IMG/VR virus record: IMGVR_UViG_3300018080_005419 | Direction: 5' to 3' (one strand) | From: a virus | Length of the DNA: 64,000 nt | In this document: piece after piece, positions 7,781-17,526 of the stretch | Numbering within the stretch: position 1 is the first letter of the stretch | Layout: each line of letters begins with the position of its first letter | Made by a program: the position numbers and the translations under genes | Notes under the pieces: generated by a model | Seen by the model: only the letters and a program-made list of their open reading frames with translations | What the model was told of the DNA's origin: nothing | Database searches by the model: none

Positions 7781-9112
7781 ATGACTATAACAAAACAAGA
7801 ACGAAGAAAATTTAAAAAAGAAATGGAGAGAAAAGAAGAGGAAATCAAAGCCTCTCTTGCCAGGAAAATCAAGCCTAAAAAATCCAATAAGGATGAAGAA
7901 ATTAAAGAGGTAGTCTATAATAAGTTTTGCGAACCCACTCGTAAATTTTGTTTAAATCATCCTCTATATTGCACTTACAGAAACATAAAATACGATCAAG
8001 ATAAAAAACTGTGGTATAAATATCAAAATCAAGCTCTTGAGAAACTACTTCATACCTGTTTTGATTTAGAATTAATGTATGATGAAAAATGCTGCAAATG
8101 TCTCCCAAAAATAGCACTTTATTGTCAAGACTGGATGCGAAACTTAGAAGACTGGAAACCCAAAACTCATAATAGACATCGACAAATTGCACATCTTTTG
8201 CGTTGGCTTTTTGTAAAATATGACATGCCACTTTTTATGGACACTGCATGGTACGAACAAAAGCAAAATAAATATATCTCTTGGTATATCGATATTGGAA
8301 AAGGAGGAAGTGTATATAAAACATTAAAGCCTTATAATATGACAAGAAAAATGGCTCACCTGTTTGTCCAGTCTCCTAAAGATCTTTCCATTACTGAAGC
8401 TTTGCGATGGACTCAAACTCTAGCATATGGAGGCGATCAAAAAATTGCTCATGCTATTGTCAAAAGTGAACTGCCCATATTGGATCTGAAATTCCCATTT
8501 TGGATGGAGCTAATTCATTTGTTTGCTAGAAGCCCAATGATGGATGCGGCACAAATTGGACCTGTTGTGGATTATGTCAGATTTCAAAAAGCACAAAATG
8601 ATGAATATACTTTAAAAGGGAGAACAATCAATTCTCTCATCAAGCACACAGAAGATTGGCATCAAGGATTAGTTAGAGAAAGAAGGGTCAAGGGGAAATG
8701 TTGGGAGGGCATATGTCTGCCTGATTGGAAACACATTGAAGGCAAAAGTCATCCTAATGAAGATGAAAATGCACTTAACAAAAAACAAACTGTATATAAA
8801 ATTGTACAGATTTTGAACGGAAAAGAATTAGCAGAAGAAGGTAGATCTATGTGCCATTGTGTTTATTCTTATAGCTATTCGTGCGAAAGAGGACAAAGCT
8901 CAATTTGGTCCTTAAGAAAAAATGCATGGGAAGAAGCACGGCAAGAAAGAGTAACTAGAAGACTTTTAACAATCGAAGTTAGAAATCGTGATAATACTAT
9001 ATCCCAAGTAAGAGGAAAATATAACAGAACACCTAATGGTAAAGAGATTTTTTTGTTGAAAAAATGGGCTGAGGAAGCTAGACTTAGAATTAATGCTTTT
9101 GGAGTTAGATGA
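7781..9112 (+). CDS. PcfJ-domain protein
   Basis: C-terminal LAEEGRSMCHCVYSY...SIWSLR...LTIEV...QVRGKYNR, typical of PcfJ-like proteins. Confidence 0.85.
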   Translation: MTITKQERRKFKKEMERKEEEIKASLARKIKPKKSNKDEEIKEVVYNKFCEPTRKFCLNHPLYCTYRNIKYDQDKKLWYKYQNQALEKLLHTCFDLELMYDEKCCKCLPKIALYCQDWMRNLEDWKPKTHNRHRQIAHLLRWLFVKYDMPLFMDTAWYEQKQNKYISWYIDIGKGGSVYKTLKPYNMTRKMAHLFVQSPKDLSITEALRWTQTLAYGGDQKIAHAIVKSELPILDLKFPFWMELIHLFARSPMMDAAQIGPVVDYVRFQKAQNDEYTLKGRTINSLIKHTEDWHQGLVRERRVKGKCWEGICLPDWKHIEGKSHPNEDENALNKKQTVYKIVQILNGKELAEEGRSMCHCVYSYSYSCERGQSSIWSLRKNAWEEARQERVTRRLLTIEVRNRDNTISQVRGKYNRTPNGKEIFLLKKWAEEARLRINAFGVR

Positions 9113-10184: not shown

Positions 10185-10322
10185 ATGATTTCCACTCGAA
10201 GAAAAAAGCTCAAGAGAAAGTCAAGAAGAAATCGCAAAGACAAAGAAAAACAATTAAAGAACAAAGAAGCAAGATCGGCCAAACGAAAAGCATACAATCT
10301 AAAATATAAATCTAAGAAATAA
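10185..10322 (+). CDS. Very basic 45-aa peptide (MISTRRKKLKRKSRR...)
   Basis: AAGGAG RBS; roughly half K/R; absent from ORF track. Confidence 0.6.
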   Translation: MISTRRKKLKRKSRRNRKDKEKQLKNKEARSAKRKAYNLKYKSKK

Positions 10323-10354
10323 AAGAAGATATATTATTTTTGAATTAAATTGAA

Positions 10355-10388: not shown

Positions 10389-11228
10389 ATGCCTAGTCGT
10401 ATATATAGAATAGCCAAAAGACTTATTGTTTCGGCAGCATTAACCGGCATTACAGATCCACGCCAATTATTTGAAGAACTGTCAGGAAGCGATATAGTAT
10501 TCTTTGATGTAGAAACAACAGGTTTAGATCAACACGAAAAACAAATAATCGAAATTGCAGCTATTCGTGTAGATGGTAGTACATTAAGAGAAAAAGACAA
10601 GTTACATAAAAAGATAAAGCTCACCCAAAAAACTCTAAAACAAATTCAAGAACAAAAAGAAAATCCCTCAACTCTCAAAAAAGGAGAATGGGGCGTAGAA
10701 AAAGTATTAGAATATACCAGATATAATAAGCTGAATCTACCCGAAGAAGAAGAAATAAAAGTCCTAGAGGAATTTAAGGAGTTCTGTGAAAAAAGCAATG
10801 CATATTTAGTGGCACATAATGCTAAATTTGATTTAAAAATGATAGGAACAAGAATCGGTAAAATTAAGAACCTCAAAGTCTATGATACAATGATGTTTGC
10901 CCGATTTTTCTTCATTCCTTCTTTAACTGCGCTATCAAAAGCAGGAGACGAAGAAGCCACCGATCTTCTTGAGAAAATGAAAACGTCAAAAGGAAAAGTG
11001 AGTTCTGGGCTTGTTTATTTAGGAAAAGGGTTAGGCATAGATGTTTCACAAGCCCATAGTGCTTTAGCCGATGTACAAACTACTATCAAGGTTTTTAAGG
11101 GAATTGTCGATCATTTTGAAAATAAGGCAGAGAGTTTAGAATCAGAAGAATATGAGAAGGGGAGACAAAAAGCAATTATGAAAGAAAGGTTCTACAAACA
11201 ATTAGATAAGAAGAAAAAGAAGCGTTAG
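10389..11228 (+). CDS. DEDDh 3'-5' exonuclease (DnaQ-like) with RIA-type leader
   Basis: FFDVETTG, AHNAKFD, HSALAD motifs; N-terminus RIYRIAKRLIVSAA. Confidence 0.9.
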   Translation: MPSRIYRIAKRLIVSAALTGITDPRQLFEELSGSDIVFFDVETTGLDQHEKQIIEIAAIRVDGSTLREKDKLHKKIKLTQKTLKQIQEQKENPSTLKKGEWGVEKVLEYTRYNKLNLPEEEEIKVLEEFKEFCEKSNAYLVAHNAKFDLKMIGTRIGKIKNLKVYDTMMFARFFFIPSLTALSKAGDEEATDLLEKMKTSKGKVSSGLVYLGKGLGIDVSQAHSALADVQTTIKVFKGIVDHFENKAESLESEEYEKGRQKAIMKERFYKQLDKKKKKR

Positions 11229-11641: not shown

Positions 11642-13267
11642 TTATTCCACAGGCACAGATTCAATCCCACCTTCCTTAACCATCTCATAGAACTTCCTTT
11701 TTCCTGCCAATCCTGAAAATAGCTTTCTATTAATATCGATAGGATGCATATAGGCCGTTCCTAATTTGTCTAAAGCATGCATAAATTCATCTTCATTTTG
11801 AGCTTCTTCTACAAGTTCAGCAAGCTTTTTCAGAGATGCTTCTAGTTTGCTTGTTTTAGGAGCTTTTGGATTTGATGGTTCTAAAAAACTTTGAGAACTA
11901 GGAGCACTAACATCTCTTTCCATGATTTTTTGCATAGCTTTAGAGACATCGATTGTAGGTGTACTTATTTTAATACGTTTTCCTGTTAAATCAGCTAAAT
12001 ATTGAATTGCTTTATCTACACTGGAAAATAGAACTTGTTGACCGTAATGCTCTTTTAGCTCTTTGAAATATTTAGGATAAGATTTTTCAAGATATTTGAG
12101 TCTTTTCTTGCTTAACTTTCCTAATGTGCCCTTTTGAAGCATTGTATTATGATATATAGTTCTTTCAATGTCGTCGCCTAAAAGAAATTGAATATCCTTC
12201 CAGGGAGTGTTGTTTGCTACTCTTTCAACATTAATATAAATGCTCCAAGATCCATCATAATCTTGTTCCCATTCCCAATATAAGCTGTTATCTTCAGCTA
12301 CTTCTTCAAAAAGCTCGAAAAGATCTTTTGCGCCTATATCTCCTATATCTAATTCTTCATCATACCCTTCTTGCATATCTTCTACTTTATCTTCAAACTT
12401 ATTCTCAAGCGCTTTAACATAATCATCCTGTGCCCAACTATCCCATGCATCTCTCTCATAATCTCTTTGTTGTTCATAAGGAGGCTCATTACTTCTATAA
12501 TTTTCATATGCATTAGATCTTTCAAATGCTCTCTCTAAATCTAACTTTTCTATTAAAGGCATTAGTTCGTCTATTTCATCGGCTTCTATAGGATCATTTG
12601 TGACATTATTAAACATTTCATCACTAGGACTAAATAGAGCATAATAGCTTCTATTTGGTTTTGTGAACAGCCATAGGGGTTTATAGCCTTCATAATTATC
12701 TTGTTCATTTACACACCATTTAGTTTGATGTGCGAATAATGGTTGTCCCTCTTCTTCCCAACTTCCATCAATTAAATAAGCGTGATATCCATTTAAAACC
12801 AAGTCGGGAGTTTTAAGTATTTGTTCTCTCTTATCGTTTGCCAATTCTTCTTCTGTGTCTTCAATAAAGCTAATGAGATCTGCACCCTTTTGGAAATCCT
12901 TTAACTTTTTAGATGTTTTGCCTTTTCCTCTTAGATTGTTTAGCTTTCTTATTGCATCTTTAATTTCTTCTTTTCTATAAACATTAGACATATATGGAGG
13001 ATTATCAAAATACCACTCTAAAAGAATATGAATAGATTTAACACTCTTCTTTAAATTGCCATCAAATTTTGGATCTATACGAGCAATTTCAACGATTTCT
13101 TGTTGTACTCTATGATCTTCCCAATTTTTAGATATACTCACGCGCTTTCTAAATCTTTCTACTAATTCAGGCATTAGGTCTTCAAGAGATTTAGCAATAA
13201 GAATCCGGCTACCTGTTAAATTAGCTAGATATTGAAAAGCCAAATTAGCATTGGAAAATTTTAGCAT
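11642..13267 (-). CDS. Large acidic protein with N-terminal and internal leader modules and a 'KWCV' domain
   Basis: MLKFSNANLAFQYLANLTGSRILIA; internal LFSSVDKAIQYLADLTGKRIKIS; TKWCV...LWLFTK...YYALF. Confidence 0.85.
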   Translation of the reverse strand: MLKFSNANLAFQYLANLTGSRILIAKSLEDLMPELVERFRKRVSISKNWEDHRVQQEIVEIARIDPKFDGNLKKSVKSIHILLEWYFDNPPYMSNVYRKEEIKDAIRKLNNLRGKGKTSKKLKDFQKGADLISFIEDTEEELANDKREQILKTPDLVLNGYHAYLIDGSWEEEGQPLFAHQTKWCVNEQDNYEGYKPLWLFTKPNRSYYALFSPSDEMFNNVTNDPIEADEIDELMPLIEKLDLERAFERSNAYENYRSNEPPYEQQRDYERDAWDSWAQDDYVKALENKFEDKVEDMQEGYDEELDIGDIGAKDLFELFEEVAEDNSLYWEWEQDYDGSWSIYINVERVANNTPWKDIQFLLGDDIERTIYHNTMLQKGTLGKLSKKRLKYLEKSYPKYFKELKEHYGQQVLFSSVDKAIQYLADLTGKRIKISTPTIDVSKAMQKIMERDVSAPSSQSFLEPSNPKAPKTSKLEASLKKLAELVEEAQNEDEFMHALDKLGTAYMHPIDINRKLFSGLAGKRKFYEMVKEGGIESVPVE

Positions 13268-13725
13268 TATTCTTCCTCGTCTGGATCTGGAGCTAAATTT
13301 TTTCCAGCTTTAATTGAATCGAAAATAATCTTACCTTCTTCAGGAGACTCACCTTTAGGATGGAAGCTAAGGGTTTTCTCTTCTCCACGTTCAAAAAATG
13401 CTCTGTCGTGAATTGGGTCTACTGTACTGTACCAAACGCCTTCATGAAATTGACTGCTTGATGGTTCTGCTGCACCTTCTTTCAACATATAATCAATCAT
13501 CTCATATAAAGAATCAAATTCCATATCTTTATGCTCAAATCCAGTTTCGGCATAATCTCCTGCTCTTGCTGATTCTTCAGTTACAATCTGATATGTGACA
13601 TCAAGTTTAAAATCTTGGAAAAGAGTCTGCTGTCCATCGTATGCAGCAATAATAACTTTCTTACCCGTCATATCAGAAAGGTGTTGAATTGCTTCTTGTT
13701 CACTGCTAAAATTGAGTTCACGCAT
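13267..13725 (-). CDS. Leader-module acidic protein
   Basis: LNFSSEQEAIQHLSDMTGKKVIIAA; AAGGAG RBS. Confidence 0.85.
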   Translation of the reverse strand: MRELNFSSEQEAIQHLSDMTGKKVIIAAYDGQQTLFQDFKLDVTYQIVTEESARAGDYAETGFEHKDMEFDSLYEMIDYMLKEGAAEPSSSQFHEGVWYSTVDPIHDRAFFERGEEKTLSFHPKGESPEEGKIIFDSIKAGKNLAPDPDEEE

Positions 13726-13863
13726 TGTTTAATCTCCTTATTTGCCTTCTACACAATATACTCCAAATATTCAAAAATATTAAAATACATATAACTACTT
13801 AGAAATAAAACAATTAAATATTTTTAAAAAGATATGAAATTTTTGGAGGGAGTTTTGTTTATA

Positions 13864-14043
13864 TTATTTAGAAAGGATCTCGATAGGATATGTTTTTAAG
13901 AGGCAAACTGTACAAATAGTTCCGTCTTCGCACATTTGGTCGAAAATTTCGTTGATCTTTTTCTTTGTTAATCTTTTGCAATCAAGAGGGATTGTTTCTT
14001 TGTGTCCGCATTGAAGTTTGAAAGTTATTGATTTCTGTGCCAT
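13864..14043 (-). CDS. Small Cys-containing protein MAQKSITFKLQCGHKE...CTVC (59 aa, absent from ORF track)
   Basis: ATG 14043, TAA 13864-13866, AGAAAGAGAG upstream; CGH...CxxC suggests zinc binding. Confidence 0.55.
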   Translation of the reverse strand: MAQKSITFKLQCGHKETIPLDCKRLTKKKINEIFDQMCEDGTICTVCLLKTYPIEILSK

Positions 14044-14046
14044 AAT
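14018..14046 (+). promoter_or_regulatory. Possible sigma70 promoter for the tRNA
   Basis: TTGAAA-17 bp-CATAAT about 30 nt upstream of the tRNA; overlaps the start of the antisense small ORF. Confidence 0.4.
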
Positions 14047-14076
14047 AGGTTAAACTCTCTTTCTAAAAAGATAAAA

Positions 14077-14148
14077 GCGCCCGTCGTCCAATGGTTAGGG
14101 CTCAGATCTCTAAAATCTGTTATAGGAGTTCGATTCTCCTCGGGCGCA
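14077..14148 (+). tRNA. Amber suppressor tRNA (anticodon CUA), Glu-like scaffold
   Basis: Complete cloverleaf: acceptor GCGCCCG/CGGGCGC, D arm GTCC-AATGGTTA-GGGC, anticodon arm CAGAT-CTCTAAA-ATCTG (CTA at 14110-14112), 4-nt variable loop, T arm AGGAG-TTCGATT-CTCCT, discriminator A; followed by CTA, not CCA. Confidence 0.92.
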
Positions 14149-14188
14149 CTAATATTATCAAAGAATCAAACTTTTTCAAATAGTTTTC

Positions 14189-14217
14189 TTGACAAACGAA
14201 GGAATATAGAGCATAAT
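14189..14217 (+). promoter_or_regulatory. Sigma70-type promoter of the Pth operon
   Basis: TTGACA-17 bp-CATAAT; predicted TSS ~14224-14225 coincides with the start of a structured RNA. Confidence 0.75.
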
Positions 14218-14224
14218 AGACAAT

Positions 14225-14323
14225 ACTTGCAACTGGCTTGAATGGTAGATACGGAAGCCATAGGATATGTGACCCCGTACTATATTCTGAAAAGAACGAA
14301 TCAAGGTCATCCCCAGTGCAAGT
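14225..14323 (+). ncRNA. Structured 5' leader RNA / candidate ncRNA
   Basis: Nested stems ACTTGCA.CTGG/CCAGTGCAAGT, CTTGA/TCAAG, GTAG.TACGG/CCGTACTAT and a TTCT-GAAA-AGAA tetraloop hairpin. Confidence 0.55.
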
Positions 14324-14342
14324 GTTCAGAAAAGGAAAAGAA

Positions 14343-14669
14343 ATGACCTAGGTAAAACACTGGAACTATATTCTCCTCCGTACTGATCTTCCAATAGATC
14401 AACAAATCGTCCAATCCGCCCATGCAGCTTATGAGGCGGCTTTATATTTGGACCAACCTCGCTCTCCTGTTAATTCCTTGGTTATTTGTGCTGTGCCTAA
14501 TGAAAACGCTCTGCTAAAAGAGTATGAGCGTTTGGCATCCTATAATATCGATTCAATTCTATTTCAAGAGCCAGATAGAAACAATGAAGCAACGGCATTT
14601 TGCACAGAGCCGATTTCTAAAAAGAAGAGGAAGTTATTTTCAAAATGGAAACTTTGGAAGGAGAAATGA
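14343..14669 (+). CDS. Peptidyl-tRNA hydrolase 2 (PTRHD1-like) protein with in-frame TAG at codon 3
   Basis: AAGGA RBS 6 nt before ATG; ATG ACC TAG GTA ...YILLRTDL...QIVQSAHAA...FQEPD...TAFCTEP; the conserved N-terminal motifs lie upstream of the ORF-track start at 14448. Confidence 0.8.
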
Positions 14670-14670
14670 A

Positions 14671-14778
14671 ATGCGTTAGGCAAAAGCTCGTGGACCTCCT
14701 TTTTGGATTTCAGAAATGGCTTTAGGGCTAGTTTGTAGCAAGTTTAATTTAAGTACTTTGTTAATCTTAAACTTGTAA
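14671..14778 (+). CDS. Putative leader/arrest peptide MR*AKARGPPFW... with TAG at codon 3
   Basis: AAGGAG RBS 7 nt before ATG 14671; ATG CGT TAG GCA AAA GCT CGT GGA CCT CCT; open to TAA at 14778. Confidence 0.5.
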
Positions 14779-14842
14779 TAATTCTTAAAAACAGTTTTGT
14801 CAGAAAAAGATATACAAATTTCTGTCAAAAAGGAGAATCAAA

Positions 14843-15139
14843 ATGACTGCTATTGAGACGAAAAATGAAGTTCGCAAAGAGATTTTAGAAACAAAGGAAA
14901 AGATCAAGGCATTAGCTGCAATTCAAAAAGAAGAAAAACAACTTTTAAGAATGCCACATAATAAAATTCCAACAATAGATATTAAACTTCGTAGTGGAAA
15001 TGTTTATCAATGTGGCGGAATTGATCGTGCAGGTCGTTTAATGAGTATAACCAGAGAAAGAGCATATAAGATTACCAAACTCCATATTAAATATAATCGT
15101 ATGCGAGGAAAGCCAACAGATATGCATGAGTACAAATAA
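14843..15139 (+). CDS. Hypothetical protein (KEKIKALA...YNRMRGK type)
   Basis: AAGGAG RBS; basic helical protein downstream of the RGPP ORF. Confidence 0.75.
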   Translation: MTAIETKNEVRKEILETKEKIKALAAIQKEEKQLLRMPHNKIPTIDIKLRSGNVYQCGGIDRAGRLMSITRERAYKITKLHIKYNRMRGKPTDMHEYK

Positions 15140-15150
15140 GGAGAAAAATA

Positions 15151-15549
15151 ATGGACATCGAACAAGAAGATATTGAGAAGTTTTTTGAAATTTATGAAGA
15201 CGTAAAACAAAAGATTGATGATATTGGGAACCTTATTAAATTTGGGAAAAAGAATGACTGGAGTTTAGAGGATTTCGAAGAGCACGGAGGAAATGTTAAA
15301 GCCTTCTTTGAGTATTGGCCCTCTTGTGGTTGTTGCGGCCCTGAACGTTGCTCTGTAGAAATTCCTATGCATTTGCTTTGGAATGAAAATGGCGAAGAAA
15401 AAGCACTTGAGTTAGGGAAAAGAAACCGCTTTATTGCCAAACAAGAAAAAATCAAGAAAGAGCGAAAAGAGAAATTAGAAAACAAAAAGAGAAACAAAGA
15501 AAAAGAACTGGCTGAATACAAAAGATTAAAAGAAAAGTTTGAAAATTGA
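15151..15549 (+). CDS. Hypothetical protein
   Basis: AAGGAG RBS; CGCC motif; coiled-coil C-terminus. Confidence 0.75.
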   Translation: MDIEQEDIEKFFEIYEDVKQKIDDIGNLIKFGKKNDWSLEDFEEHGGNVKAFFEYWPSCGCCGPERCSVEIPMHLLWNENGEEKALELGKRNRFIAKQEKIKKERKEKLENKKRNKEKELAEYKRLKEKFEN

Positions 15550-15688
15550 TGTAAATATCTTAAACACAATGACGTTATGGGGTCAGAACTAAAAATCTGG
15601 CCCTATATTTTTTAAAAAGTTCAATCAAATCTCTCTAAATAGAATATAATATATTGTTGATTGTTTGTTTAAAAGAAAGTATATAACA

Positions 15689-15970
15689 ATGCCAGAGATA
15701 GAGTTTGAAGCAAAACCCAGTGGAGATATGGAGTGCTTTTGCTGGGATGTTACAGAAGAAGAGTACAAAAGAGTTGTCGGAAAAGATGACTATCAATTTG
15801 AAAAAGAATACAGAGAAGAAAGCCATCATGAAGAATATTTAAGAGAATCAGGATTGCCACCTTCTCCTTGGTTTCTTTATCCTGGACATATATTGAGAGC
15901 TATGGGTTTCGATCCAAGCAAAAGTGAAAGTCTAAGAGTGAAAATGATTGTAGAAAAAATTGAAGCCTAA
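15689..15970 (+). CDS. Hypothetical acidic protein
   Basis: ATG 15689 (ORF track starts at 15665). Confidence 0.7.
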   Translation: MPEIEFEAKPSGDMECFCWDVTEEEYKRVVGKDDYQFEKEYREESHHEEYLRESGLPPSPWFLYPGHILRAMGFDPSKSESLRVKMIVEKIEA

Positions 15971-15975
15971 ATAAA

Positions 15976-16416
15976 ATGCCAAGAAATATAATCCGATTTT
16001 ATAGACACACTCAGCCTTGTTTTTGCTTTTCGAACTTTTTTAAGTTTCCAATAGTTCTTAAAGATAAAATATGGCCTACTTCGGAACACTATTATCAAGC
16101 CCAAAAATTCACAAATACTGAATATGAAGAAAAGATCAGGCTTCTCAAAACACCAAAACAAGCAGCAAATATGGGCAGAGACAGATCCCTTCCTCTAAGA
16201 AAAGATTGGGAAGAAGTTAAAAATGAAATTATGTACGAAGCTTTAACGGCCAAATTTTCCCAATCAAAAGAATTAAAATCTATTCTTCTAGCAACAGGAA
16301 ATGCAATATTGATAGAAGACTCGCCTAAAGACTATTATTGGGGATGCGGAAAAGATAATACAGGAAAGAATATGCTTGGGAGATTGTTGATGAAAATTCG
16401 CAAACAAATGAGGTAA
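15976..16416 (+). CDS. NADAR (YbiA-like) family protein
   Basis: FSNFF...WPTSEHYYQAQKF...A.MGR...RKDWE.VK..IM...L.AKF...LL.TG...LIEDSP.DYYWG.G...G.N.LGR.LM.IR. Confidence 0.95.
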   Translation: MPRNIIRFYRHTQPCFCFSNFFKFPIVLKDKIWPTSEHYYQAQKFTNTEYEEKIRLLKTPKQAANMGRDRSLPLRKDWEEVKNEIMYEALTAKFSQSKELKSILLATGNAILIEDSPKDYYWGCGKDNTGKNMLGRLLMKIRKQMR

Positions 16417-16424
16417 CAAGTAAA

Positions 16425-16646
16425 ATGTTTAATATTAACAAAAACAAGAGAGATGGGATATTAATTTTCGTACTCGTTTTTGCATTTATTGTGATGGTTT
16501 TATTTTGCATTCATCACATAATAATATATCGCGAAAATGTAGCCAATCAAAAGAAAGTACAAGAATTAGAAATGGAACAAATGAGAATTAAATTACAACA
16601 ATTACAAGAGAAAAAATGTACCGAAACCCAGAGTAGAGAAGAGTAG
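16425..16646 (+). CDS. Single-pass membrane protein with coiled coil
   Basis: One hydrophobic segment followed by a Q/E-rich helix. Confidence 0.7.
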   Translation: MFNINKNKRDGILIFVLVFAFIVMVLFCIHHIIIYRENVANQKKVQELEMEQMRIKLQQLQEKKCTETQSREE

Positions 16647-16710
16647 TAGGATGAGAATGGAATGCAACGGTTTTATTTAGTTTTTAAAAGAGAAAGGCAA
16701 CAGAAGTAAA

Positions 16711-16866
16711 ATGGGTAAGACAAGAAGACATGACGAATTTTTGGAAGATGATTTTGATAACAACAGAAAAAACAAGAAAAAGAAAAATCAAACAATAAGA
16801 GAAAACAGAAAAAAAGCAAGGGAAAGAAGAGAAAGGGGTGACTATGCAACAATCTTAGAACAATGA
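16711..16866 (+). CDS. Small basic protein MGKTRRHDEF... (51 aa, absent from ORF track)
   Basis: ATG 16711, TGA 16864-16866; K/R-rich. Confidence 0.55.
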   Translation: MGKTRRHDEFLEDDFDNNRKNKKKKNQTIRENRKKARERRERGDYATILEQ

Positions 16867-17526
16867 CTCTTGTTTATCACTAATATCGGGCGCTTCAACA
16901 ACCCAAAATGTGACATCAAGATCGTTATTCCAAGCTAAATTACTACGTCTATTTCCCGAGAATCCATAATAGGTTTTCGGGAATTTTATTAAGATAGGTG
17001 CTTCTAACTCTATTTTTATTTTTTCATTTAATCTATCTCTAAGTTGTGTATATCCTTCTCTATATGTTGGATCTTGTATTTCTTCCTGGAAATCTTTAGG
17101 ATCCTTTGTAATGTTCATAGCAGGATTGACACCAAATTTACTTATTTTTTGGAGCTTACCGTTACTTAAGAAATCAATTAATTCTTTATCTGTTTTAAAA
17201 GAATAACCCATTTTAGCAAAGAAACGCCTAGTAGGATCGTTTTCAAAATACTCACCTGCCTCATCCGCAAAATCAGGCTTTATCCACTTGATTTCTTTTT
17301 GTGGAGGATTGAGTTGATTTGAGACTTCTTTTGTTGAAACTCCATATTCTTTAGCGGCTTGTGCTATTGCTACTCCATACGGTTTACCTTTTTTTTTAAC
17401 TAAAAATCTAACTCTATCTGCTGCCTTTTCTATTTCTCTTGAGGCAGCAACAATAATACGCTTACCTGTCAAATCAGATAAGTATTGGATAGCTTCTGAT
17501 GTACTAGAAAATTTAATTTGCTGCAT
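16855..17526 (-). CDS. Leader-module protein with HTH-like segment and ParB/Srx-like C-terminal domain
   Basis: Likely start MQQIKFSSTSEAIQYLSDLTGKRIIVAA at 17526; APILIK...FSGNRRS; ends QESLF. Confidence 0.8.
   Translation of the reverse strand: MQQIKFSSTSEAIQYLSDLTGKRIIVAASREIEKAADRVRFLVKKKGKPYGVAIAQAAKEYGVSTKEVSNQLNPPQKEIKWIKPDFADEAGEYFENDPTRRFFAKMGYSFKTDKELIDFLSNGKLQKISKFGVNPAMNITKDPKDFQEEIQDPTYREGYTQLRDRLNEKIKIELEAPILIKFPKTYYGFSGNRRSNLAWNNDLDVTFWVVEAPDISDKQESLF

What the first reader, a model, noticed from the sequence alone, without database searches (positions are those of the whole stretch)
14343..14669. Pth2/PTRHD1-like gene whose conserved N-terminus needs read-through of TAG at codon 3
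Seen: the ORF track begins at 14448 and misses YILLRTDL...QIVQSAHAA, the Pth2-family N-terminal strand and AHA helix. Those residues lie between the TAG (14349-14351) and 14448. No in-frame ATG/GTG/TTG occurs before them, while ATG 14343 has AAGGA 6 nt upstream. A full 108-aa protein therefore requires amber decoding. Inference: the enzyme's own gene produces its substrate (fMet-Thr-tRNA drop-off) when read-through fails, which could form a feedback loop.
Basis: partly seen in the sequence, partly recalled or inferred. Interest (0 to 1): 0.85.

Follow-up and report, generated by a model that had tools for sequence, protein, structure and literature searches.

The report
Amber-gated phage Pth2-like gene
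A giant phage keeps a UAG stop as the third codon of a small tRNA-hydrolase-like gene and encodes a UAG-reading tRNA about 190 bases upstream; dozens of distant phages keep the same pairing, so the enzyme is most likely made only when that tRNA overrides the stop.

Summary
ATG 14343 has AAGGA 6 nt upstream and is followed by ACC, TAG (14349-51) and an open frame to 14669. No canonical start lies before the conserved first strand.

Among 65 distinct relatives in viral contigs, 37 share the layout SD-ATG, 0-7 codons, stop, then the conserved strand.
- 35 of the 37 stops are TAG, and 31 of those have a tRNA-CUA within 10 kb.
- All three TGA leaders (two in this class plus L054) sit beside a tRNA-UCA instead. 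None is TAA.
- Cultured phages (GAP32, fHe-Yen9-04, ME3, Arash, RsoM2USA, XacN1) show the same layout, and their annotations miss, truncate or split the gene.

The window otherwise uses the standard code: 13 of 72 long ORFs end in TAG. An AlphaFold model (pLDDT 92.5) has the Pth2 fold, and its first strand and helix lie upstream of the called TTG start.

The best reading is programmed read-through by the phage's own suppressor tRNA.

A second TAG-gated mini-ORF encoding the RGPP arrest motif follows the gene.

This scan has found the same cassette in 60 or more other genomes. I found no published description.

The parts
14018..14046 (+). sigma-70-like promoter (TTGAAA-17-CATAAT with TG) in front of the tRNA
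   Evidence: consensus match only
14077..14149 (+). amber-suppressor tRNA, anticodon CUA. Canonical cloverleaf, 7-bp acceptor stem, discriminator A, no encoded CCA.
   Evidence: ARAGORN; Rfam tRNA 60.3 bits, E 3e-12
14189..14217 (+). sigma-70-like promoter (TTGACA-17-CATAAT, 11 of 12) for the Pth2-like gene
   Evidence: consensus match only
14332..14336 (+). Shine-Dalgarno AAGGA, 6 nt before ATG 14343
   Evidence: sequence
14343..14669 (+). Pth2-like gene, 108 codons plus TGA. The whole frame is readable only if TAG is decoded.
14349..14351 (+). in-frame TAG at codon 3, followed by G (purine at +4)
   Evidence: conserved in relatives
14671..14778 (+). second amber-gated mini-ORF: ATG CGT TAG, then A-K-A-R-G-P-P (RGPP codons 14689-14700), ending TAA 14776-78. 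Its SD GGAG (14660-63) lies in the end of the Pth2-like gene.
   Evidence: RGPP arrest motif per PMC12992588
14696..14705 (+). Pro-Pro-Phe codons complementary to CAAAAAGGAG (14826-35), the SD of the next gene. Candidate SD-masking helix.
   Evidence: MFE fold. Weak: ranks 11th of 110 SD regions in the control.
14843..15139 (+). 98-aa conserved partner gene ('X') that follows the mini-ORF. Helical hairpin with a beta-hairpin tip.
   Evidence: homologous proteins follow such mini-ORFs in other loci; model pLDDT 84.8; prefoldin-beta-like topology, not significant

Best explanation
The TAG at codon 3 is a programmed stop that is decoded by the phage's own amber-suppressor tRNA(CUA), encoded 190 nt upstream. 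Ribosomes start at ATG 14343. Without charged suppressor tRNA, RF1 ends translation after two residues, which costs almost nothing. With it, the full 108-residue Pth2-fold protein is made. Synthesis of the enzyme is therefore tied to the level of suppressor activity in the infected cell. Shown by comparative evidence: the early stop is conserved, its identity covaries with the neighbouring suppressor anticodon, and the fold needs the residues just after the stop. Inferred: the tRNA is expressed and charged, the very early position makes failure cheap and may favour suppression over RF1, and the product acts on peptidyl- or acyl-tRNA species linked to suppression or ribosome arrest. The inserted amino acid is probably irrelevant, because the stop sits in a non-conserved N-terminal tail and some relatives start normally a few residues before the strand. 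The gene is one output of a small cassette. A second TAG-gated mini-ORF with an RGPP arrest motif follows it and probably controls the next gene.
For: A tRNA(CUA) lies on the same strand 190 nt upstream, with a canonical cloverleaf and 60 bits in Rfam. No canonical start lies between the TAG and the strand, and an SD sits before ATG 14343. In the AlphaFold model, strand 7-13 and helix 18-35 lie upstream of TTG 14448, and the model has the Pth2 fold. All five homologs first inspected, in four cultured phages and one uncultured contig, carry ATG plus 1-2 codons plus TAG. Across 65 distinct N-termini, 37 have a short leader stop: 35 TAG and 2 TGA, none TAA. Of the TAG cases, 31 have a tRNA-CUA within 10 kb. 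All TGA cases, L054 included, have a tRNA-UCA (Fisher p 1.7e-4). The base after the stop is a purine in 36 of 37, against 57% background; from memory, that context favours amber suppression. The window uses the standard code: 13 of 72 ORFs end in TAG, and only one long ORF has an SD-ATG-TAG leader with no nearby alternative start. The mini-ORF stops match the local anticodon in 14 of 15 loci, including one TGA/UCA and one TAA/UUA pair.
Against: Nothing here is experimental. Expression, processing, charging and identity of the tRNA are unknown, and no peptide spanning the TAG has been seen. A suppressor should also read through the 18% of this phage's genes that end in TAG, which is a cost. Four of the 35 TAG-leader relatives show no suppressor tRNA within 10 kb. 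Some relatives have GTG or ATG right after the stop (IkeLoa, L054, XacN1), so reinitiation is possible there. Relatives are not phylogenetically independent, so the p-values overstate the case. The position of the Pth2 catalytic Lys holds Gln, so the enzymatic step is uncertain.
Confidence: 0.8

Rival explanations
1. ATG-ACC-TAG is a separate two-codon upstream mini-ORF, and the enzyme is made by termination-reinitiation or by initiation at a non-canonical codon just after the stop.
For: In some relatives a canonical start follows the stop at once or within four codons: IkeLoa ATG TAG GTG, L054 TGA GTG TTG, XacN1. Two-codon minigenes are known in lambda (bar; from memory).
Against: In the window the codons after the TAG are GTA AAA CAC TGG AAC TAT. 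The first canonical in-frame start is codon 36, after strand 1 and helix 1. A coupling uORF should use any stop, and TAA is commonest in these loci (45%). Instead 35 of 37 stops are TAG, none is TAA, and stop identity follows the neighbouring anticodon.
Confidence: 0.07
2. Negative-feedback homeostat, a variant of the best explanation. The Pth2-like protein hydrolyses aminoacyl- or peptidyl-suppressor tRNA. Read-through of its own TAG then limits suppression, much as RF2 controls its own prfB frameshift.
For: The family sits next to suppressor tRNAs even where the gene has an ordinary start (L056, L062, L065, L072, L082, IkeLoa), which points to a functional tie to the tRNA itself. It would also explain how a standard-code phage tolerates a suppressor while 18% of its ORFs end in TAG.
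Against: There is no evidence on substrate. It does not explain what the suppressor is for, unless the arrest mini-ORF and gene X are the real output. The active site differs from studied Pth2 enzymes.
Confidence: 0.2
3. One reading: failed read-through releases fMet-Thr-tRNA by drop-off. This is the enzyme's substrate, so the gene generates its own demand.
For: ATG plus one codon plus stop is the commonest leader (20 of 37). Very short ORFs are prone to peptidyl-tRNA drop-off (lambda bar minigenes; from memory).
Against: The leader varies from 0 to 7 codons after the ATG, and codon 2 varies (Thr, Leu, Ser, Lys, Arg, Ala and others). The host Pth1 would clear such products. No route leads from peptidyl-tRNA load back to read-through efficiency. 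Hydrolase activity is unproven.
Confidence: 0.08
4. The phage has reassigned TAG genome-wide (code 15), and this is just one of many recoded genes.
For: The phage encodes a tRNA-CUA. Some relatives carry a second internal TAG in this gene and are probably recoded (L006, L037, L042, L047, L057).
Against: Code 11 already gives dense coding in the window, and TAG=Q adds little. Thirteen of 72 ORFs of 100 aa or more end in TAG with short extensions beyond. Only this gene and the mini-ORF show leader TAGs.
Confidence: 0.03
5. A recent nonsense mutation or sequencing error has made the gene a pseudogene.
For: Gene callers truncate it to 73 aa.
Against: The same early stop occurs in dozens of homologs that are only 32-51% identical, in phages of unrelated hosts.
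Confidence: 0.01

Closest known systems
Stop-codon-recoded phages with phage-encoded suppressor tRNAs (TAG read as Gln, 'code 15'; crAss-like, Lak and others; Borges et al., bioRxiv 10.1101/2021.08.26.457843)
   Same: A phage-encoded tRNA(CUA) decodes in-frame TAG in phage genes while the host uses the standard code. Recoding is proposed to act as a translational regulator.
   Different: Here the genome keeps TAG as a working stop (18% of ORF ends). One specific small gene family carries a single stop at codons 2-9, in a non-conserved tail. That preprint does not mention a hydrolase.
Archaeal/eukaryotic peptidyl-tRNA hydrolase Pth2 (Pfam PF01981; 2zv3, 3erj, 1wn2, 1q7s, 1xty)
   Same: Same fold (TM 0.72-0.77) and shared R-x-D-L and Q-x-x-H-A motifs. 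Canonical PTH2 is already known in jumbo phages (PMC7824862; GAP32_382).
   Different: This is a separate, diverged family and scores below the Pfam cut-off in the window. The GK loop is shortened, and a conserved Gln stands where the HMM alignment places the Lys. GAP32 carries both this gene and a canonical PTH2.
prfB (RF2) autoregulation through an early in-frame UGA
   Same: An early in-frame stop makes synthesis depend on competition between a release factor and an alternative decoding event.
   Different: prfB uses a +1 frameshift and its product is the release factor itself. Here the stop is read by a dedicated tRNA, and feedback by the product is not shown.
RAPP/RGPP ribosome arrest peptides (ApdA, ApdP, SecM-type; PMC10951233, PMC12992588)
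   Same: The neighbouring mini-ORF encodes A-R-G-P-P upstream of a gene whose SD can pair with the Pro-Pro codons.
   Different: The nascent chain is only 10 residues at the arrest point and has no secretion signal. Entry into the arrest motif is gated by a suppressible stop. No such phage case was found in the papers searched.
Lambda bar minigenes (two-codon ORFs toxic in pth-defective hosts; from memory)
   Same: SD, ATG, one sense codon, then a stop.
   Different: Here the frame continues into a conserved protein, and the stop is almost always TAG, paired with a cognate tRNA.

Membership tests
Pth2 peptidyl-tRNA hydrolase (PF01981) | Pth2 alpha/beta fold | tested here: met
   AlphaFold pLDDT 92.5. 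The top 10 Foldseek matches (12 of the top 13) are Pth2 structures, prob 1.00, TM 0.65-0.77.
Pth2 peptidyl-tRNA hydrolase (PF01981) | Score above Pfam's gathering cut-off | tested here: not met
   17.7 bits against a cut-off of 23. 24 of 32 relatives match at E <= 0.01, best 6e-9.
Pth2 peptidyl-tRNA hydrolase (PF01981) | Catalytic Lys of the GK loop and Asp of the DAG motif (residue roles recalled from memory of the S. solfataricus work, not checked in a paper here) | tested here: inconclusive
   The HMM alignment to 2zv3 puts the nearly invariant Q20 at the Lys position and the nearly invariant E76 at the Asp position. R13, D15, Q24 and H27 are shared.
Pth2 peptidyl-tRNA hydrolase (PF01981) | Hydrolysis of peptidyl-tRNA | not testable with these tools
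   Needs an enzyme assay or pth(ts) complementation.
Suppressor-tRNA-dependent programmed read-through | Cognate suppressor tRNA encoded by the same genome | tested here: met
   tRNA(CUA) at 14077-14149.
Suppressor-tRNA-dependent programmed read-through | In-frame stop conserved among diverged homologs, with identity matching the anticodon | tested here: met
   35 TAG, of which 31 have CUA nearby; 3 TGA, all with UCA; no TAA.
Suppressor-tRNA-dependent programmed read-through | Protein product spanning the stop | not testable with these tools
Genome-wide code 15 recoding | Many genes interrupted by in-frame TAG, with low coding density under code 11 | tested here: not met
RAPP/RGPP arrest peptide (for the neighbouring mini-ORF) | R-[AG]-P-P core upstream of a co-oriented gene | tested here: met
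   RGPP at 14689-14700, 143 nt before gene 14843. 15 forward and 0 reverse hits in 79 loci; shuffles average 1.1.
RAPP/RGPP arrest peptide (for the neighbouring mini-ORF) | Specific SD-masking structure released by the stalled ribosome | tested here: inconclusive
   An 11-bp helix appears in the MFE fold, but the pairing ranks only 11th of 110 SD regions in the window.

The most novel reading that the evidence does not exclude
The so-called orphan suppressor tRNAs of standard-code jumbo phages have a dedicated natural target. It is a portable cassette in which the tRNA gates two things. One is a diverged Pth2-fold enzyme, through a stop at codons 2-9. The other is a very short RGPP/RAPP arrest peptide that switches on a conserved helical-hairpin protein. 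The cassette would then be a self-contained translational switch that reads out suppressor activity against RF1. It could be the foothold from which whole-genome stop-codon reassignment evolves in phages.
Probability: 0.5. Interest if true: 0.85.

Novelty: new variant of a known kind. Interest (0 to 1): 0.8.

Why it matters
Suppressor tRNAs are annotated in many cultured jumbo phages that use the standard code, and their purpose has been an open question. The XacN1 authors wrote that they could not identify target genes (PMC5852040). This cassette supplies a specific, conserved target that can be tested. It is present in phages that grow in the lab, and XacN1 ORF364 itself is preceded in frame by SD-ATG-AAG-TAG.

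It also shows a systematic annotation error: the gene is missed, truncated or split in GenBank records and in public protein sets.

If the gating is real, it is a natural gene switch based on an orthogonal tRNA and a stop codon. That is of interest for understanding how code reassignment starts, and for synthetic biology.

Tried and rejected
- Complex prediction of the Pth2-like protein with protein X gave no verdict. It counts neither for nor against binding.
- No whole genome is held for this window.
- blastn of 13000-17000 against the phage collection found no nucleotide relative.
With the single protein it found nothing.
- The word-based protein search returned only the window's own truncated 73-aa call.
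- A structured 5' leader (14225-14360) is not supported: z = -1.08.
- The fold of 14655-14850 is not unusually stable overall: z = -0.34. The SD-masking helix is not specific in the control, ranking 11th of 110.
- Protein X has no Pfam, PHROG, NCBIfam or Atlas lead. Its prefoldin-beta-like topology has Foldseek E 0.4, so it is a lead only.
- The suppressor tRNAs of the loci are only 41-65% identical to the window's. I could not define one tRNA family or assign an amino-acid identity.
- A pattern scan for the anticodon loop was uninformative.
- The phmmer hits to RecA concatemers in the PDB are an artefact of repeated chains.

Full report
**1. The observation.** The sequence is as described. 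AAGGA lies at 14332-36. ATG 14343 is followed by ACC and TAG (14349-51), and the frame then stays open to TGA 14667-69. Read through, it gives 108 residues.
- The mechanical ORF list starts this frame at TTG 14448 and gives 73 aa. The only copy in the public protein collection is that truncated form, from a contig of about 212 kb.
- No ATG, GTG or TTG lies in frame between the TAG and the Arg of the conserved strand.

**2. What the finding's text left out.** ARAGORN and Rfam both find one tRNA in the window, at 14077-14149 on the same strand, with anticodon CUA.
- It has a canonical cloverleaf with a 7-bp acceptor stem, a normal 7-nt anticodon loop and no encoded CCA.
- Promoter-like sites precede both the tRNA (14018-46) and the gene (14189-217, 11 of 12 consensus positions). 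No terminator-like site lies between them.

**3. The protein.** Pfam PTH2 matches weakly and below its cut-off, but over nearly the whole length.
- A profile of 32 relatives hits solved Pth2 chains at 2.8e-7 and 1.3e-5.
- The AlphaFold model is confident (pLDDT 92.5). Its top 10 Foldseek matches (12 of the top 13) are Pth2 structures.
- Strand 7-13 and helix 18-35 are integral to the fold and lie upstream of TTG 14448, so the 73-aa call cannot fold.
- The active site differs from studied Pth2 enzymes. The GK loop is shortened, and a nearly invariant Gln stands at the position the alignment gives to the Lys. An acidic residue (E76) is kept at the Asp position. Which residues are catalytic is my recollection, not something I checked in a paper.
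- I therefore call it a Pth2-fold protein of unproven activity.

**4. Relatives.** tblastn against phage records found 36 hits, in jumbo phages of enterobacteria, Acinetobacter, Xanthomonas, Ralstonia and Stenotrophomonas, in mycobacteriophages and in two uncultured metagenomic phages.
- In fHe-Yen9-04, GAP32, ME3 and Arash the gene starts ATG plus one or two codons plus TAG. In those records it is unannotated, truncated or split.
- ME3, Arash and GAP32 each carry a tRNA-CUA 0.5-3 kb away.
- A scan of viral contigs with an alignment gave 80 loci. Together with the window they make 80 analysed sequences (one locus lacked the motif) with 65 distinct N-termini.
- 37 of the 65 have a short leader (ATG, 0-7 codons, stop, at most 15 codons, then the strand) with no usable alternative start.
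- Of those 37, 35 stops are TAG, 2 are TGA and none is TAA.
- 31 of the 35 TAG cases have a tRNA-CUA within 10 kb on the same strand, at a median distance of 1.4 kb.
- Both TGA cases, plus L054, have a tRNA-UCA instead.
- TAG ends only 17% of ordinary long frames in these loci. The stop-versus-anticodon table gives Fisher p 1.7e-4. The base after the stop is a purine in 36 of 37.
- The sequences are related, so these p-values are upper bounds on significance. The covariation is still the key point: a plain coupling uORF would not care which stop it used.

**5. Not genome-wide recoding.** Under code 11 the window is densely coding.
- 13 of 72 ORFs of 100 aa or more end in TAG.
- Only this gene has an SD-ATG-TAG leader followed by a long frame with no nearby start.

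**6. Size of the family.** An exhaustive profile search finds 4,453 cluster representatives at E <= 0.001, and 2,054 at E <= 1e-10. Among the best 150:
- some begin M-x-Q, presumably code-15 translations of the same leader;
- some begin inside the strand and are truncated calls;
- some have ordinary starts.

The leader stop is therefore frequent but not universal, which fits a regulatory add-on. More distant members with ordinary starts still sit next to a suppressor tRNA (L056, L062, L065, L072, L082; mycobacteriophage IkeLoa gp151 has tRNA(cta) 250 nt downstream). Fusions exist with an HD domain (L024, XacN1, Xoo-sp13) and with another small protein (L051, L064, L080).

**7. The second gated element.** Two bases after the gene's stop lies ATG CGT TAG, followed by A-K-A-R-G-P-P (14671-14778).
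- RGPP is reported as the strongest intrinsic arrest motif and the most avoided tetrapeptide in bacterial proteomes (PMC12992588).
- Start, early stop, then R-[AG]-P-P occurs 15 times on the forward strand of 79 loci. It never occurs on the reverse strand, and shuffles average 1.1.
- The early stop matches the local suppressor anticodon in 14 of 15 loci, including one TGA/UCA and one TAA/UUA pair.
- The proteins encoded after these mini-ORFs are homologous to one another. The window's 98-aa protein at 14843-15139 is one of them.
- The Pro-Pro-Phe codons can pair with that gene's SD. In a control against all SD regions of the window this pairing ranks only 11th of 110, so I treat the masking helix as plausible, not shown.

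**8. Mechanism.** The best reading is gating of the Pth2-like gene by the phage's own suppressor tRNA (confidence 0.8).
- Placing the stop at codon 3 makes failure cost two residues.
- From memory of the minigene work, release factors act poorly on very short peptidyl-tRNAs, which would favour the suppressor.
- What the enzyme does is open. It could clear peptidyl-tRNA produced by arrest or drop-off, or trim charged suppressor tRNA in a negative loop.

**9. Prior knowledge.** I searched seven times across the held literature; five of those searches looked for this cassette. I also read the XacN1, jumbo-phage overview, Borges, Klebsiella-phage and large-scale jumbo-phage papers. None describes this.
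- The XacN1 paper says explicitly that no target of its suppressor tRNAs was found.
- Its ORF364 is preceded in frame by GAGGA, then ATG AAG TAG, four codons before the annotated ATG.
- This scan has noted the same cassette in at least 63 other genomes, and twice more on this stretch. My results agree with those notes. They add the stop/anticodon test for the mini-ORF and the negative specificity control.

Noticed in passing
window 14671-14778: Mini-ORF ATG CGT TAG followed by A-K-A-R-G-P-P. This is an amber-gated RGPP arrest-type peptide placed 2 nt after the Pth2-like stop, with its SD inside that gene's end. Similar mini-ORFs recur near the family in 15 of 79 loci.
   Followed up: yes
window 14843-15139: 98-aa protein with no family match. 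It is homologous to the proteins that follow RGPP/RAPP mini-ORFs in other loci. Its model is a two-helix hairpin with a beta-hairpin tip, and the prefoldin-beta-like topology is not significant.
   Followed up: partly
L090 236-259 (Xanthomonas phage XacN1, record 243735-243758): GAGGA, then ATG AAG TAG ACC ATT AAA GCG, then the annotated ATG of ORF364 (an HD plus Pth2-like fusion), all in frame. This is a candidate target for the suppressor tRNAs that the XacN1 paper left without one.
   Followed up: partly
L089 365-373 and 996-1061 (Mycobacterium phage IkeLoa): The 'peptidyl tRNA hydrolase' gp151 is annotated from a GTG that directly follows ATG TAG, and tRNA(cta) lies 250 nt downstream. Either reading of the start is possible.
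   Followed up: partly
L078 about 7850-7905 and 10502-10590: An ochre version of the cassette. The mini-ORF's early stop is TAA, and the locus carries a tRNA with anticodon UUA instead of CUA.
   Followed up: partly
L024 9431-10300: Leader M-N-S-N-T-G-W-TAG, then an HD domain (Pfam E 2e-5) fused to the Pth2-like domain. L018-L020 and L032 share the M-N-x-K-T-x-W-TAG leader without the HD domain.
   Followed up: partly
window 14242-14346: A 34-codon ORF in the 5' leader whose TGA overlaps the ATG of the Pth2-like gene (ATGA). It has no SD, and I did not examine whether it is translated.
   Followed up: no
window 15976-16416: NADAR-domain protein (Pfam E 4e-42), three genes downstream of protein X.
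   Followed up: no
window 11642-13267 and 13267-13725 (minus strand): Both proteins begin with a similar roughly 25-residue segment (A-x-Q-[YH]-L-[AS]-x-[LM]-T-G-[KS]-x-[IV]-x-I-[AS]), and the longer one repeats it internally. It matches the repeated tag that another reader noted for this genome.
   Followed up: no
L048 about 10319-10330: In this relative the Pth2-like protein itself ends with A-R-A-P-P directly before its stop codon.
   Followed up: no
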